Below are positions 19,596 to 22,326 of a stretch of 64,000 nucleotides of DNA, one piece after another (positions within the stretch are counted from its first letter, which is position 1; the number at the start of each line of letters is the position of its first letter). Both the position numbers and the translations under genes were made by a program. A model generated the notes under the pieces. It saw only the letters and a program-made list of their open reading frames with translations. It made no database searches and was not told the origin of the DNA. The stretch covers positions 64,001 through 128,000 of the forward strand of contig JAHLVW010000094.1 of the NCBI GenBank assembly GCA_019058275.1. The letters run 5' to 3'. Source of the stretch: Candidatus Heimdallarchaeota archaeon. GTDB lineage: Archaea; Asgardarchaeota; Heimdallarchaeia; JABLTI01.

Positions 19596-19769
19596 TTTAG
19601 TCACCATATTTTCCTATCAAAAAGAGCTAGGTAGTTAAAGTATAAGTTATACGGTTTAAAAAATAAACCACTAATTTTTCCTTAGAAAATAAATGCTCAA
19701 CTTTATTTAAATGTCAAAGAAGAAGAATATAGCTAAGCTTAAATTAAAGCCCTTAGGATTTTGATTAAA

Positions 19770-20189
19770 ATGGCTGAAACAAAAAGAATGGCTATTGTTG
19801 TACATTCTGGTACATTAGATTTAGCCTATCCACCATTAATGCTTGCTGCTGCAGCGGGTGCATCTGATATGGAAGTTGATATGTTCTTCACATTTTGGGG
19901 ATTAAATCTCTTAAAAAAGAAAGGATTAAAAAGAGCAAAACTTTCTGGTGCATGGCGACTTGGTACAGGCATGATGAAATTGATGATTAAAAGAACAGGA
20001 ATGGCTTCTCTACCTGAATTGCTAGAAGCTGTTATTGATACTGGTAAAGTAAGACTCTATGCTTGTACTGCTACAATGGATATTATGATGGTTAAAAAAG
20101 AACAATTGATACCAGAAGTAACAGGTTTCATGGGAGCAGCTGGATTTTTAGATATTGCTGCAGATTGTGATATACAATTATTCATTTAA
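19770..20189 (+). CDS. DsrE2/DsrE-like family protein
   Basis: SGTLDLAYPPLMLA, FFTFWGL, LYACTATM and GAAGFL motifs. Confidence 0.88.
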   Translation: MAETKRMAIVVHSGTLDLAYPPLMLAAAAGASDMEVDMFFTFWGLNLLKKKGLKRAKLSGAWRLGTGMMKLMIKRTGMASLPELLEAVIDTGKVRLYACTATMDIMMVKKEQLIPEVTGFMGAAGFLDIAADCDIQLFI

Positions 20190-20201
20190 GGTGAAAGCAA
20201 A

Positions 20202-20444
20202 ATGTCTGATATGCCCACTCCAGACAAAACACTTGATGCTCGTGGATTCCAATGTCCTATGCCAATTTTAAAGGCTAAGAAAACCATCCAAAGTATGAAA
20301 ACAGGACAAATTCTTGAAGTTCTTTCTGAAGATCCTGGATCAAAAGAAGATTTTCCACGATGGGCAAAACGTACAGGTAATGAATTACTAGGTATTTTTG
20401 ATGAAGAAGATTATACTCGTTATTTCATAAAGAAGACAGTATAA
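20202..20444 (+). CDS. tusA: TusA/SirA sulfurtransferase
   Basis: LDARGFQCPMPILK and DPGSKEDFPRW motifs. Confidence 0.93.
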   Translation: MSDMPTPDKTLDARGFQCPMPILKAKKTIQSMKTGQILEVLSEDPGSKEDFPRWAKRTGNELLGIFDEEDYTRYFIKKTV

Positions 20445-20530
20445 ACATCTTCTATACCGTTTTTTCTATTTTTTAAGGTTAAAAATAAGTGGAATTTGAG
20501 CTTTAATCAAACACTCATTTATACCAAAAA

Positions 20531-20548
20531 AACGGTAAACTTTAAAAA
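20531..20548 (+). promoter_or_regulatory. BRE/TATA promoter of the permuted 5S rRNA precursor
   Basis: Purine-rich AACGGTAAAC then TTTAAAAA (20541-20548), about 25-30 nt upstream of the start of the terminal stem (~20571). Confidence 0.6.
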
Positions 20549-20571
20549 GTGAAGATTACTCGAAAGACTAC

Positions 20572-20727
20572 GCAGAAACTCATCGCCGGAAGTTAAGCCT
20601 TCATACGTTATGTTAATTACTGATCTGAGCGATCGTTCGGGAACAACATAAAGCTGCGTCTCGACGCGGTCAAAGCTGGAGGGTAACACCCGGACTCGTC
20701 CGATCCCGGAAACGATGAGTTTCGTGC
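20572..20727 (+). repeat. Terminal inverted repeat and BHB-like processing stem enclosing the permuted 5S
   Basis: GAAACTCATCG (20575-20585) and CGATGAGTTTC (20713-20723) form a perfect 11-bp inverted repeat, extended by GCA/TGC across one bulged G. CCGGAA occurs at both 20586-20591 and 20706-20711. Confidence 0.9.
20592..20711 (+). rRNA. rrf: 5S rRNA gene, circularly permuted (3' half 20592-20660, TC linker, 5' half 20663-20711)
   Basis: The re-ordered sequence folds as an archaeal 5S. Helix I is GACGCGGU/GCUGCGUC and helix II is UGGAGG/CCUUCA. The helix III/loop C/loop B region reads ACACCCGGACUCGUCCGAUCCCGGAA|GUUAAG. Helix V is UAUGUU/AACAUA, helix IV is CUGAGC/GUUCGG, and loop E has UAC/GAA. 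Confidence 0.9.
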
Positions 20728-20788
20728 TATCAGACTTTCATTATCTCTTTAACTATTAGAAAATAAAATTTGGATGAGATTGTCTTAG

Positions 20789-21142
20789 TTAAGACTCATC
20801 CTCAACATCAAAAGCAATTTTGCCAGCTTCTTTAGTAAATAATGAAAAATCTATTGTATGTTTGCCTAGTTCTAATTTTCCACTCACTTTAAAAGTAAAA
20901 GTGTCCCCCTTGGTCAATTTAAAGGGATTCTCTTCTGATATACTATCCAAATTTATCTCTTTTTCATTGACAATAACTTTGATTTTACTAGCATCAAATT
21001 CCTTTTCATCAATTTTCAAAGGATCTAAACCAATAATTGTTGCAGGATAAATGGTGTTCAATAATTGAAATGAGATTTCTTCTCCCTCTTGTTTTAAGCT
21101 TCCTTTTAGATAGAGTTTCTTCAACATAAATTTTGGAATCAT
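20789..21142 (-). CDS. Small beta-rich hypothetical protein
   Basis: 117-aa ORF with a GGAG SD; the IPKFMLKKLYLKGSL N-terminus recalls a small Ig-like domain family. Confidence 0.6.
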   Translation of the reverse strand: MIPKFMLKKLYLKGSLKQEGEEISFQLLNTIYPATIIGLDPLKIDEKEFDASKIKVIVNEKEINLDSISEENPFKLTKGDTFTFKVSGKLELGKHTIDFSLFTKEAGKIAFDVEDES

Positions 21143-21270
21143 TGTACTAACTCTCCAAATATCTAAACTAATTAAACAATACTACTAGTTTTTAATTTAT
21201 CGTAATTCTAGATTTTACCTCCGAAGAAATCTTATATAATAAAGCAATATTAACGATTAGTCATTACTGG

Positions 21271-22326
21271 TTGGTTTTATTCATAATGAGAAGGACTAAA
21301 TTTCATTTGCTTTCATTTCTTCTTGTTATTTTTGTATTTGGTAGTTTCATCATTAACTTTCTTCCCATTACAGCATCTCATGAATCCCTTCATCCCATAA
21401 GTAAGAAAGCCAATACATTAACAATAGTAACCTCAATTTCAATTGTAGCTGATTTTGCATCAAAAATAGGAGAAGGTATTTTCACAGTTGAAAGTATAGT
21501 TACTGGTAATGAGAATCCACATATTTATGAACCTAGTCCTTTGGAGATTCAAATGGTAGCTGAATCTGATTTATTTATCAGGTTTGGACTTGAAGGATTA
21601 GAACCATGGGTTCAATCAGTTGTAGATGTAAATCTTGGTATAAAAGTACTGGAACTTGTTAACAGCTCGATGATTGAATTTGATTCATTGATAAATGCTG
21701 ATAACCCCCATGTTTGGATGAATCCTAATAATGTAAAAACAATGGCAAGTATGATTTATCAACAAGTTTCACTTTTAGATCCAGAAAATATTGCAACATT
21801 TAATACTAATCTCAATAACTACTTGAGTAATTTAGATTCTTTATTATCAAGAATTGAGGATGCTAAGGTGGATATGGATGGAATGAAAGTTGTTGTCCAT
21901 CATCCTTCTTTCAAGTATCTATTTGATTTGCTAGGAATTATTCGAGTTGGTGCAATTGAAGAGAGAGAAGGTTCTGAACCTTCACCAGATCATATTCAAA
22001 AGATAATGTCTGACATAGAGACTGAGAATGTTAGTTTAATTGTGAATCAACCACAGTTGGAGGAGGAAACTGTAAATCAAATTGCAAGAGAAACAGGGAT
22101 AAAGATAGTGGATCTAACTCCTTTACTGGGAGTTTTTGGTCTTAATTCATACATTGCTATGATTGATTACAATCTAATAGCATTGAAAAATCCATTTGAA
22201 CCCCCCAAAGTAAATATTGATTTGCCATTTTGGTTTTTGGTTAGTTTTGGAATTACAATTATCTTATCATATATATTATTCATCATTGTAGTTAGGTATC
22301 GACATTCAAGGTCGTTGCTAGTGTAA
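21271..22326 (+). CDS. znuA: Zn/Mn ABC transporter substrate-binding protein with a C-terminal TM anchor
   Basis: NPHIYEPSP, DNPHVWMNP, HHPSFKY and EPSP motifs. Confidence 0.92.
   Translation: MVLFIMRRTKFHLLSFLLVIFVFGSFIINFLPITASHESLHPISKKANTLTIVTSISIVADFASKIGEGIFTVESIVTGNENPHIYEPSPLEIQMVAESDLFIRFGLEGLEPWVQSVVDVNLGIKVLELVNSSMIEFDSLINADNPHVWMNPNNVKTMASMIYQQVSLLDPENIATFNTNLNNYLSNLDSLLSRIEDAKVDMDGMKVVVHHPSFKYLFDLLGIIRVGAIEEREGSEPSPDHIQKIMSDIETENVSLIVNQPQLEEETVNQIARETGIKIVDLTPLLGVFGLNSYIAMIDYNLIALKNPFEPPKVNIDLPFWFLVSFGITIILSYILFIIVVRYRHSRSLLV

What the first reader, a model, noticed from the sequence alone, without database searches (positions are those of the whole stretch)
20571..20727. Circularly permuted 5S rRNA gene with a built-in BHB-like splice site: predicted circular 5S rRNA
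Seen in the sequence: the 5S halves are in swapped order. The 3' half (G20592-C20660) comes first, then a 2-nt TC linker closes helix I as a hairpin (GCTGCGTC-TC-GACGCGGT), then the 5' half follows (G20663-A20711). The unit is enclosed by a perfect 11-bp inverted repeat (20575-85/20713-23). Inside it, CCGG(20586-89) pairs with CCGG(20706-09) as a 4-bp helix, with a 3-nt segment 3' of it on each strand (AAG, AAA). This is BHB geometry; the inner flanking helix is unpaired, so it is a relaxed BHB/BHL form. Established knowledge: archaeal splicing endonuclease cuts after the second bulge nucleotide and RtcB ligates. Cuts at 20591^20592 and 20711^20712 would release a 120-nt piece whose circularisation regenerates ...GAUCCCGGAA|GUUAAGCC..., the canonical loop C/helix III/loop B sequence, with no extra or missing base. 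A TATA box sits at the right distance upstream. The same logic is known for the permuted SRP RNA of Thermoproteus and permuted tRNAs of Thermofilum; I know of no description for a 5S rRNA gene. Inference: this lineage makes its 5S rRNA via tRNA-splicing machinery, either as a closed circle or re-opened at the TC linker. Such genes would be missed or split by standard rRNA annotation.
Basis: partly seen in the sequence, partly recalled or inferred. Interest (0 to 1): 0.97.

Follow-up and report, generated by a model that had tools for sequence, protein, structure and literature searches.

The report
Back-to-front 5S rRNA gene, ring product
This Heimdall-group Asgard archaeon encodes its only 5S ribosomal RNA with the back half before the front half, between tRNA-intron-type cut signals, and environmental RNA contains exactly the predicted re-joined 120-base ring, which explains why 5S genes seemed to be missing from these close relatives of eukaryotes.

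Summary
Window 20592-20711 is a complete 5S rRNA in rotated order. It is framed by a perfect 11-bp stem (20575-85/20713-23), a 4-bp CCGG:CCGG helix and two 3-nt bulges. One correction: helix I is 7 bp capped by a CUCG tetraloop, not 8 bp with a 2-nt loop.

- **Only 5S in the genome:** Rfam 5S finds just two weak split hits, both at this locus.
- **Re-ordered sequence:** it matches a canonical Asgard 5S profile full length.
- **Conservation:** a model of the permuted form hits all 28 same-class genomes and most other Asgard families sampled. Canonical 5S is confined to six other families.
- **Covariation:** the flanking stem and central helix covary across about 20 family-level groups.
- **RNA evidence:** contigs from four metatranscriptome studies run from 20711 straight back into 20592 and also span the helix I cap. 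They are 148-150 nt long, as expected for a 120-nt circle.
- **Enzymes:** the genome has two EndA paralogues and RtcB.

Cut-and-join is strongly supported. It is open whether the ring itself is the ribosomal form. I found no published description. This scan has noted the same thing before on other DNA (110 notes, at least 88 genomes).

The parts
20541..20548 (+). TATA-like box (TTTAAAAA) of a stand-alone transcription unit. The predicted start is near 20570.
   Evidence: Read. A TTTAAA/TTAAAA box stands in the same column in all 12 same-family homologues, about 26-34 nt before the outer stem (alignment). The start site is inferred from the usual archaeal TATA-to-start distance and was not measured.
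20575..20585 (+). Leader strand of the outer (exon-side) helix of the BHB-like motif
   Evidence: Perfect 11-bp complement of 20713-20723. It keeps 11 of 11 pairs in all 9 distinct same-family versions despite base changes such as G-C to A-U next to the central helix.
20586..20589 (+). Leader strand of the 4-bp central helix (CCGG)
   Evidence: Pairs with 20706-20709. In other lineages the two strands change together: CUGG:CCAG, CAGG:CCUG, CGUG:CACG, CCGC:GCGG. So pairing is conserved, not a direct repeat.
20590..20592 (+). 5' bulge AAG, with the cut between 20591 and 20592
   Evidence: RNA contigs join 20711 to 20592. The tool reports the joint as 20705 to 20586 with 6 letters (CCGGAA) that fit either side.
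20592..20659 (+). Back part of 5S. Helix III lower 3' strand GUUA is at 20592-95. Helix II 3' strand is at 20598-20603. Helices V/IV span 20608-20651. Helix I 3' strand is at 20653-59.
   Evidence: Canonical 5S profile positions 45-119. Fold of the re-ordered and of the circular RNA. Covariation on 40 permuted genes: 96.7% of cells paired, 24 of 33 pairs with changes on both sides.
20660..20663 (+). CUCG tetraloop that caps helix I and joins the natural 3' and 5' ends
   Evidence: In most other family-level groups the cap is a UNCG-type tetraloop (UUCG, UGCG, UACG). The RNA contigs read CGCG here (T20661G).
20664..20711 (+). Front part of 5S. Helix I 5' strand is at 20664-70 and helix II 5' strand at 20677-82. 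Helix III 5' strand is UAAC (20684-87) plus CCGG (20690-93). Loop C follows, then helix III upper 3' strand CCGG (20706-09) and AA (20710-11).
   Evidence: Canonical 5S profile positions 4-50; folds; covariation.
20706..20709 (+). Trailer-side strand of the central helix. The same four bases form helix III in the mature RNA.
   Evidence: A precursor fold with the BHB enforced costs only 1.8 kcal/mol more than the minimum-energy fold (-54.1 against -55.9).
20710..20712 (+). 3' bulge AAA, with the cut between 20711 and 20712
   Evidence: Same joint in the RNA contigs. Loose end GTTAAGCCT directly behind 20711 in runs X13 and X14.
20713..20723 (+). Trailer strand of the outer helix

Best explanation
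Window 20570-20725 is the single 5S rRNA gene of a Heimdall-group Asgard archaeon, written in rotated order. It sits alone between protein genes and is probably transcribed from its own TATA box as a precursor of about 150 nt. In that precursor the leader and trailer pair over 11 bp. Next to this stem, leader CCGG pairs with the last CCGG of the 5S sequence, and a 3-nt bulge follows each strand. This is a bulge-helix-bulge signal without the inner helix. The archaeal splicing endonuclease is inferred to cut after the second bulge base on each strand (20591|20592 and 20711|20712). The genome has two paralogues of this enzyme, one apparently non-catalytic, which fits the type that accepts relaxed motifs. 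RtcB is inferred to join the ends of the released 120-nt piece. The joint re-creates the helix III string CCCGGAA-GUUAAGCC, so a canonical 5S sequence exists only after joining. Helix I is already closed by a tetraloop, so the product is a covalently closed 120-nt ring. Shown here: the gene order, its uniqueness in the genome, its conservation and covariation, and the exact joint and ring-shaped contigs in RNA data from a near-identical relative. Inferred: the enzymes, the start site, and that the ring is the form built into the ribosome. I put that last step at about 55-60%.
For: - **Gene order and identity:** one full-length hit of a canonical Asgard 5S profile on the re-ordered sequence (63.9 bits), against two swapped partial hits on the native DNA. 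The re-ordered and circular RNAs fold into the 5S three-way junction.
- **Only 5S in the genome:** RF00001 at E up to 10 finds only the two weak split hits at this locus in the 4.12-Mb genome, which is 92.8% complete. The permuted model R1 finds one hit, at 130.9 bits.
- **Structure of the permuted form:** on 40 permuted genes 96.7% of cells are paired, against 72% in shuffles and 32-46% when partners are slid. 24 of 33 pairs change on both sides.
- **Distribution:** the same arrangement occurs in 11 of 11 same-family genomes. It occurs in closed Heimdallarchaeum genomes and in Hodarchaeota, Atabeyarchaeia and Asgardarchaeum records. R1 hits all 28 same-class genomes and most other Asgard families full length, at about 80 bits or more for most. 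Exceptions are f5 at 66, one Hod-family genome (G013) at 73, and family f13 at 35-73. RF00001 passes its cut-off only in families f10, f16, f19, f14, f26 and f27.
- **BHB covariation:** a leader paired with its own trailer gives a mean of 8.6 of 11 outer pairs, against 4.1 with trailers from other groups. 61% of own combinations reach 9 or more pairs, against 0.6% of cross combinations. The central helix shows compensatory types.
- **RNA:** contigs from four metatranscriptome runs of four studies are 99% or more alike. Three carry the joint 'goes back 120' (20705 to 20586, with 6 ambiguous letters, which equals 20711|20592). The fourth shows the same joint as loose ends. Each contig also spans the helix I cap, and their lengths are 148-150 nt.
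- **Enzymes:** two EndA paralogues and RtcB are present.
- **Literature:** 5S genes 'could not be predicted' in the closed Heimdallarchaeum genomes (PMC8813620). Capping the native 5S ends with a tetraloop is tolerated in E. coli ribosomes (PMC7283268).
Against: - The RNA evidence comes from assembled contigs of environmental libraries, not raw reads. It comes from a sequence that differs at one base (T20661G), so from a near-identical relative rather than provably this organism.
- Contigs cannot show ends, strand or abundance. Random-primed cDNA from small circles may be over-represented compared with 120-nt linear RNA. So the dominance of the ring is not established.
- The tool could not say whether the joined form also stands in DNA runs (table 5b).
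- The inner helix of a canonical BHB is missing.
- The precursor's minimum-energy fold pairs the leader CCGG with the helix III 5' strand instead of forming the BHB. The BHB form lies 1.8 kcal/mol higher.
- No cleavage or ligation assay exists, so the roles of EndA and RtcB are inferred.
- RF00001 could not be run on the re-ordered sequence.
Confidence: 0.87

Rival explanations
1. The ring is only a processing intermediate. After cutting and joining, a nuclease opens the helix I cap (20660-63), and the ribosome carries an ordinary linear 5S. This would parallel circular pre-16S/23S intermediates and permuted tRNA genes, which pass through a circular intermediate.
For: Re-linearisation of circular pre-rRNA is the accepted route for archaeal 16S and, in many species, 23S (PMC12918454; PMC10515664). 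Permuted tRNA genes are expressed via a circular intermediate (Soma 2007, as cited in PMC4267664). Contigs cannot show RNA ends, so a linear mature form would go unseen.
Against: Every RNA contig that holds the joint also holds the intact helix I cap. Total depth is only 4-8, so a rare intermediate should not assemble. This is an inference, open to library bias. The cap is a UNCG-type stable tetraloop in most family-level groups. That looks like selection for a lasting structural cap rather than a cleavage site. No conserved sequence signal surrounds the cap. Circular SRP RNA (PMC4731332) and circular 23S (PMC12918454) are reported in their functional particles, so a ring need not be re-opened.
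Confidence: 0.33
2. The transcript is cut but not joined, or not processed at all. The organism would then use a linear permuted 5S with its ends in helix III and helix I closed by the loop, like the permuted mitochondrial 5S of brown algae.
For: Permuted 5S rRNAs that stay permuted in the final product exist in stramenopile mitochondria (PMC4267664). The precursor can fold into an almost complete 5S using the leader copy of CCGGAA.
Against: RNA contigs from four studies contain the ligated joint 20711|20592. The conserved feature of the flanks is complementarity with a fixed 4-bp helix and 3-nt bulges, as in splicing substrates. It is not a duplicated helix III strand: CAGG:CCUG, CGUG:CACG and CUGG:CCAG are complementary, not repeated.
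Confidence: 0.04
3. The locus is a pseudogene or an assembly artefact. The ring-like contigs would come from DNA of some organism with head-to-tail 120-bp 5S repeats, and the real 5S gene lies in the unassembled 7% of the genome.
For: The genome is a 118-contig metagenome assembly, 92.8% complete with 6.8% contamination. rRNA genes are often unassembled. RNA libraries can contain DNA, and the tool could not say whether the joined form occurs in DNA runs.
Against: The same arrangement stands in closed long-read genomes that have no other 5S (PMC8813620). It also stands in all 28 same-class genomes sampled. Its 5S helices and flanks are under clear compensatory selection. No spacer-free 120-bp tandem array was seen. 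The only tandem copy found has a 157-nt period that includes the flanks (L080). DNA runs from the likely source samples hold all sampled words of the native arrangement.
Confidence: 0.02

Closest known systems
Permuted, circularised SRP RNA gene of Thermoproteus tenax (Plagens et al. 2015, eLife, PMC4731332)
   Same: A universal structured RNA gene that looked 'missing' is encoded in permuted order. [quoted passage not shown] RNA-Seq shows the termini ligated into a circular RNA, and the sequence becomes canonical only after joining.
   Different: The RNA here is 5S rRNA, a ribosome component. The break lies at the AA bulge of helix III. The state is fixed across most families of a whole phylum rather than a few species of one genus. 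Protein binding and endonuclease cleavage were shown for the SRP RNA but not here.
Circular pre-16S/pre-23S rRNA intermediates and circular or permuted 23S rRNA in archaeal ribosomes (PMC12918454, PMC7758197, PMC10515664)
   Same: A leader-trailer stem carries a BHB motif. The RNA is excised and the rRNA piece is circularised. For 23S the ring can persist in the ribosome.
   Different: Those genes are collinear, and the joint lies at the natural ends (helix 1). The gene therefore encodes a recognisable rRNA without splicing. Here the gene itself is permuted, the natural ends are fused in the DNA, and the joint creates an internal conserved helix. These papers state that circularisation applies to 16S and 23S 'but not 5S'.
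Circularly permuted tRNA genes of Cyanidioschyzon merolae (Soma et al. 2007, as cited in PMC4267664)
   Same: The 3' half is encoded before the 5' half. The RNA matures through cutting at a BHB-like site and ligation, via a circular RNA.
   Different: There the circle is an intermediate that is re-opened at the linker to give a linear tRNA. That system is eukaryotic and nuclear. Whether the 5S ring is re-opened is unknown. The UNCG-type cap argues against it.
Permuted mitochondrial 5S rRNA of brown algae and other stramenopiles (Valach et al. 2014, PMC4267664)
   Same: It is a 5S rRNA whose domain order departs from the canonical one, and standard models miss it.
   Different: It is organellar. 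Only the alpha domain is rearranged: helix I is replaced by a terminal hairpin. The final RNA stays permuted and linear, with no BHB, no ligation and no ring.
Engineered cp5S rRNA in E. coli (Huang et al. 2020, PMC7283268)
   Same: The native 5S ends are linked by a tetraloop and new ends are opened elsewhere. The ribosomes function.
   Different: It is artificial and bacterial. The new ends are in loops C or D and are tethered into 23S rRNA. It is not a free ring.

Membership tests
5S rRNA (Rfam RF00001) | Match to the covariance model at or above the gathering score (38 bits) on the genomic sequence | tested here: not met
   Native locus: 18.3 bits (20545-20662) and 13.9 bits (20662-20752), both below the cut-off. 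A permuted gene is expected to fail this test.
5S rRNA (Rfam RF00001) | Full-length collinear similarity to canonical 5S once the halves are re-ordered | tested here: met
   nhmmer with a profile of 12 canonical Asgard 5S genes gives 63.9 bits, profile 4-116 of 120, on 20663-20711 + 20592-20660. RF00001 itself could not be run on the re-ordered sequence, because the tool takes stored sources only.
5S rRNA (Rfam RF00001) | Three-way junction with helices I-V, supported by covariation | tested here: met
   Folds. RNAalifold predicts 31 pairs, 21 of them with compensatory changes. 96.7% of cells are paired and 24 of 33 pairs change on both sides, with 0 of 500 shuffles as high.
5S rRNA (Rfam RF00001) | Presence in the large ribosomal subunit | not testable with these tools
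   This needs purified ribosomes. Indirect support: it is the only 5S-like locus in the genome.
Substrates of the archaeal splicing endonuclease (BHB motif) | A 4-bp helix flanked by two 3-nt bulges on opposite strands | tested here: met
   CCGG 20586-89 pairs with CCGG 20706-09, with bulges AAG and AAA. The same geometry with compensatory helix types is seen across about 20 family-level groups.
Substrates of the archaeal splicing endonuclease (BHB motif) | Helices on both outer sides of the bulges (strict hBHBh') | tested here: not met
   The outer helix is present (11 bp). The inner helix is absent: U20593 faces C20705 and cannot pair. This is therefore a relaxed form. Such forms are cut by heteromeric EndA types (own knowledge), and the genome has two paralogues.
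Substrates of the archaeal splicing endonuclease (BHB motif) | Cleavage after the second bulge base, followed by ligation of the ends | tested here: met
   The joint 20711|20592 stands in RNA contigs from four studies. The position fits the rule exactly. The enzyme responsible was not tested.
Substrates of the archaeal splicing endonuclease (BHB motif) | EndA and RtcB encoded in the genome | tested here: met
   PF01974 at 97.6 and 72 bits in two genes, and PF01139 at 575.9 bits.
Permuted RNA genes restored by circularisation (Thermoproteus SRP RNA type) | Gene halves in swapped order, natural ends fused, new ends at a BHB site, and circular RNA detected | tested here: met
   The contigs are 148-150 nt long and contain both the fused natural ends and the new joint, as expected for a 120-nt circle assembled with 31-letter words. 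The last point is an inference.
Circular pre-rRNA processing intermediates (16S/23S type) | A collinear gene whose leader-trailer BHB joins the natural ends of the rRNA | tested here: not met
   The gene is permuted. The joint lies inside helix III, and the natural ends are joined in the DNA by a tetraloop.

The most novel reading that the evidence does not exclude
The covalently closed ring of about 120 nt is itself the 5S rRNA of the ribosome in Heimdallarchaeia and in most other Asgard lineages. The large subunit of the closest archaeal relatives of eukaryotes would then contain an end-less 5S made by the tRNA-splicing machinery. The gene permutation would be a rare, nearly irreversible genomic change. 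It splits Asgard families cleanly into permuted and canonical, so it can be used to polarise Asgard phylogeny. It would also test where the eukaryotic stem, which has a collinear 5S gene, branches, or force a re-linearisation event on that stem.
Probability: 0.5. Interest if true: 0.95.

Novelty: new variant of a known kind. Interest (0 to 1): 0.88.

Why it matters
- **A solved puzzle:** 5S rRNA is a universal ribosome component whose gene is said to be easy to find, yet it could not be found in closed Heimdallarchaeum genomes (PMC8813620). This locus explains why. The gene is there but back to front, so standard rRNA annotation and genome quality criteria under-call it across most Asgard archaea.
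- **An essential dependence on splicing:** these organisms would need the tRNA-splicing endonuclease and ligase to make any 5S-shaped RNA at all. This also extends rRNA circularisation to the one rRNA for which recent papers say it does not occur.
- **A new kind of ribosome component:** if the ring is the mature form, it would be, as far as I could find, the first natural circular 5S rRNA. That bears on RNA stability, ribosome assembly and structure work on Asgard ribosomes.
- **A phylogenetic character:** the clean split into permuted and canonical families offers a discrete rare-change character for Asgard phylogeny and for placing eukaryotes. It can be tested with existing cultures and enrichments.

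Tried and rejected
- **RF00001 on the native sequence** gave only sub-threshold split hits. It could not be run on the re-ordered sequence, so I used a profile HMM of canonical Asgard 5S instead.
- **Pattern scan of genome contigs:** one of 45 stretches (L095, 'Aeropyrum sp.' MAG) is a false positive. It is a canonical 5S gene with a chance upstream match. Several NCBI labels (Bathyarchaeia, Thorarchaeota, Hermodarchaeota, Promethearchaeota) belong to records that the genome tool places in the window's own class. I did not read them as spread outside it.
- **The single 'canonical' RF00001 hit in the class (G036, 38.4 bits)** is the 5' half plus trailer of a permuted gene at a contig start.
- **An unrestricted BHB scanner** picked spurious sites in Heimdallarchaeaceae. 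I restricted it to the homologous site.
- **MAFFT alignment A1** shifts the trailers by one column between groups. The BHB register also slides by one base relative to the mature sequence between lineages. I therefore did not count BHB pairs on a homology alignment. I counted them on structure-anchored coordinates with a cross-pairing control.
- **RNA contigs give no cover on leader 20500-20585 or trailer 20712-20800.** I use only the fact that the contigs run from 20711 directly into 20592.
- **Other weak Rfam matches near the locus** (hammerhead, miRNA and others, E 1.3-6.8) I treated as chance.
- **My first reading of loci L174, L186 and L188** as linear, unspliced variants was dropped. They carry a BHB at a different break point (lead).
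- **Eight literature searches** found no description of a permuted or circular archaeal 5S. One further search attempt failed on a term that was too short. The library lacks most subscription journals, so this is not proof of absence.
Full report
**What is in the sequence**

The stretch 20570-20725 lies in a 345-nt spacer. Upstream are a DsrE-like gene and a TusA gene (19761-20444, + strand). Downstream is a convergent gene (20789-21142, - strand).
- GAAACTCATCG (20575-85) is the perfect complement of CGATGAGTTTC (20713-23). This is the only inverted repeat of 8 nt or more in 20500-20800.
- CCGG follows the leader arm (20586-89), and CCGG precedes the trailer arm (20706-09).
- AAG and AAA follow each CCGG.

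Between these elements lies 5S rRNA sequence in rotated order. Rfam's 5S model does not reach its cut-off anywhere in the window. With permissive settings it gives two weak adjacent hits, at 18.3 and 13.9 bits.

A profile built from 12 canonical 5S genes of other Asgard families hits the native DNA twice, in swapped order. Profile positions 45-119 come first and positions 4-50 second. The same profile hits the re-ordered sequence once over its full length, at 63.9 bits. The re-ordered linear RNA and the 120-nt circle both fold into the usual three-way junction with helices I to V.

One detail needs correcting. Helix I is 7 bp (20653-59 with 20664-70) capped by the tetraloop CUCG (20660-63). 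It is not 8 bp with a 2-nt loop.

**It is the only 5S gene of the genome**

The window belongs to a 4.12-Mb assembly of 118 contigs, 92.8% complete. RF00001 at E up to 10 finds nothing there except the two split hits at this locus. A covariance model of the permuted form (R1, built from 40 permuted genes) finds exactly one hit in the genome, here, at 130.9 bits.

**Who else has it**
- A DNA search finds the same unit at 88-94% identity in 11 of 11 genomes of the same family. It finds it at about 70% identity in another family of the class.
- I scanned 185,579 species genomes with a pattern that can only match the order '3' end, hairpin, 5' start'. It returned 45 stretches, and 44 of them are permuted 5S genes. 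By record title nearly all are Asgard. They include the closed genomes of Ca. Heimdallarchaeum aukensis and H. endolithica (two copies each). They also include Hodarchaeota, Atabeyarchaeia-1 and Ca. Asgardarchaeum abyssi.
- Over 151 genomes sampled across the phylum, R1 gives full-length hits in all 28 genomes of the window's class. Most score about 80 bits or more. The exceptions are f5 at 66 bits and one Hod-family genome (G013) at 73 bits.
- R1 also hits families f7, f8, f9, f11, f12, f17, f18 and f20-f25. Family f13 is hit in 21 of 25 genomes at 35-73 bits. I inspected nine f13 loci. Six show the helix III BHB, and three (L174, L186, L188) break in loop C.
- RF00001 passes its cut-off only in families f10 (26 of 26), f16 (17 of 19), f19, f14, f26 and f27. 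In those families R1 gives only weak cross-hits, up to about 38 bits, and the ones I compared overlap the canonical gene.
- The single 'canonical' hit inside the window's class (G036) is the front half and trailer of a permuted gene at a contig start.

In this sample the two states therefore exclude each other by family. Family labels are anonymous. Reading f7 as Odinarchaeia and f17 as Atabeyarchaeia rests on genome size and on record titles, so it is an inference.

**The flanks behave like a splicing signal**

On 40 permuted genes the 5S helices, including the capped helix I, are strongly supported. 96.7% of cells are paired, against 72% in shuffles and 32-46% when partners are slid. 24 of 33 pairs change on both sides.

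For the flanks I anchored each gene on its own motif, because the motif slides by one base relative to the mature sequence between lineages. In 54 distinct leader/trailer combinations from 21 family-level groups:
- A leader paired with its own trailer gives 8.6 of 11 outer pairs on average. The same leaders paired with trailers of other groups give 4.1.
- 61% of own combinations reach 9 or more pairs, against 0.6% of cross combinations.
- The outer stem has a completely different sequence in different groups, yet keeps 10-11 pairs in most.
- The 4-bp helix occurs as CCGG:CCGG, CUGG:CCGG, CUGG:CCAG, CAGG:CCUG, CGGG:CCUG, CGUG:CACG and CCGC:GCGG. What is conserved is therefore pairing, not a repeated word.
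- The bulges are 3 nt and A-rich.
- The predicted circles measure 119-130 nt in most groups, and the predicted joint always restores the canonical helix III string.

Exceptions exist. Heimdallarchaeaceae have only 3-6 of 11 outer pairs and instead carry their own leader and trailer hairpins. One Atabeyarchaeia gene has its stem partner about 30 nt further upstream.

In the window the inner helix of a strict BHB is missing, so the motif is a relaxed form. The genome encodes two EndA paralogues of 191 and 196 aa that are 27% identical. In the pairwise alignment the second lacks the histidine of the catalytic triad. This fits the heteromeric enzyme type known to accept relaxed motifs (own knowledge). 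RtcB is present.

**RNA evidence**

Six metatranscriptome runs hold part of the stretch. I laid contigs of four of them, from four studies.
- Three runs each contain a contig that runs from 20705 back to 20586, with six letters (CCGGAA) that fit either side. This equals a joint 20711|20592, exactly as predicted.
- The fourth contig covers 20586-20711. Its loose ends are CGGACTCGTCCGATC before 20586 and GTTAAGCCT behind 20711. Those are the sequences expected across the same joint.
- Each contig also crosses the helix I cap.
- Contig lengths are 150, 150, 148 and 150 nt. A 120-nt circle assembled with 31-letter words would give 150 nt. This is my inference.
- The contigs are 99% or more alike and share one difference, T20661G in the cap. 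They therefore come from a near-identical relative.

The joined form contradicts the DNA arrangement, so DNA carry-over of this locus cannot explain it. The tool could not report whether the joined form exists in DNA runs.

**Mechanism**

Shown:
- the permuted gene order;
- its uniqueness in the genome;
- selection on both the 5S helices and the flanking motif;
- ligation at the predicted site in RNA.

Inferred:
- transcription from the TATA-like box at 20541-48, which is conserved in position in the family;
- cutting by EndA and joining by RtcB;
- the ring as end product.

Three points favour the ring as end product. Joint and cap occur together in contigs of low depth (4-8). The cap is a UNCG-type tetraloop in most groups, which looks like a lasting structural cap rather than a cleavage site. 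And E. coli ribosomes tolerate a tetraloop joining the native 5S ends (PMC7283268).

Against it, contigs cannot show ends, library methods may favour circles, and archaeal 16S and often 23S rings are re-opened (PMC12918454, PMC10515664). I put cut-and-join at about 0.9 and the ring as the ribosomal form at about 0.55-0.6.

**Comparison with what is known**
- **Closest precedent:** the permuted SRP RNA gene of Thermoproteus tenax. A 'missing' gene turned out to be permuted, the splicing endonuclease processes the termini, and the functional RNA is circular (PMC4731332).
- **Circular pre-16S/23S rRNAs and circular 23S in ribosomes:** these share the enzymes and the leader-trailer BHB. They come from collinear genes, however. 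Recent papers state that circularisation concerns 16S and 23S 'but not 5S' (PMC12918454).
- **Permuted tRNA genes of Cyanidioschyzon:** these use a circular intermediate that is re-opened.
- **Permuted mitochondrial 5S of brown algae:** this stays linear and involves no splicing (PMC4267664).

I found no paper describing a permuted or circular archaeal 5S. The library has gaps.

Within this scan the same thing was noted before on other DNA: 110 notes in at least 88 genomes. Follow-up reports reached the same reading for Heimdall, Hod, Atabey and Odin genomes. A later check of one of them priced 'the closed ring is the ribosome's 5S' at 35 of 100. My results were obtained independently and agree with those notes.

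**Verdict**

It is a new variant of a known kind: a permuted gene restored by BHB splicing and circularisation, here applied to 5S rRNA and fixed across most of a phylum. Interest is high, because it explains missing 5S genes and makes 5S formation depend on the splicing machinery. It also predicts a circular 5S in the ribosomes of the closest archaeal relatives of eukaryotes, and it supplies a discrete character for Asgard phylogeny.

Noticed in passing
L174, L186, L188 (family f13; genomes G113, G098, G151): A sublineage has the 5S break point in loop C instead of helix III. The leader reads GCG-CUGG-AAC followed by CAUCCGAAC. The trailer reads ACCCGG-ACA-CGC. Cutting after the second bulge base would join ...CCCGGAC to CCAUCCGAACCCGGAAG. 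So the permutation point has moved at least once, each time with a BHB.
   Followed up: partly
L020 / L049 / L101 (Hod-group genome G015), about L020:1640-1700: The permuted 5S carries an insertion of about 29 nt in loop C (AGATATGAAGGAATTTCTTCATTCCGGG), which makes the predicted circle 149 nt. It could be an expansion, a partial duplication of loop C or a small intron.
   Followed up: no
L080:3660-3973 (Heimdallarchaeota isolate S146_22): Two permuted 5S units stand head to tail with a 157-nt period. Each has its own 10-11-bp outer stem of different sequence and a shortened helix IV/V region. The predicted circles are about 115-117 nt.
   Followed up: partly
L067 / L165 (Atabeyarchaeia-1, CP147779): The complement of the trailer stem (GTGGCAACA), with CGTG-AGAG, lies about 30 nt upstream of a second CGTGAGAG copy that abuts GTTAAG. 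The leader therefore holds a duplicated half-motif and an extra hairpin. Which copy is used is unclear.
   Followed up: no
Heimdallarchaeaceae-type loci (L005, L009, L028, L031, L063 and others): The outer leader-trailer helix is short (3-6 of 11 pairs). Instead the leader carries its own hairpin with a UGCG loop (CAUCUGGA-UGCG-UUCCAGAUG), and the trailer carries a hairpin followed by a U-run. This is a different way of framing the same central helix and bulges.
   Followed up: partly
G000:C96:4458-4712 and G000:C11:10651-10911 (L107, L108): The genome has two splicing-endonuclease paralogues of 191 and 196 aa that are 27% identical. In the BLAST alignment the second has no histidine at the catalytic position. 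It also gives a weak Sen15 match just above Pfam's cut-off and a Sen54-type N-terminal match just below it.
   Followed up: partly
window 19761-20444 and 20789-22326: The neighbours of the 5S unit are a DsrE-like protein, TusA, a small protein matching the N-terminal domain of HMG-CoA reductase, and a ZnuA-type binding protein. No rRNA or tRNA gene is adjacent, so the 5S gene is unlinked from the rRNA operon.
   Followed up: partly
G036 contigs C77, C90, C106, C132: Four identical permuted 5S copies (99.5 bits each) sit at or near contig ends. This suggests a repeat that breaks the assembly of that genome.
   Followed up: no
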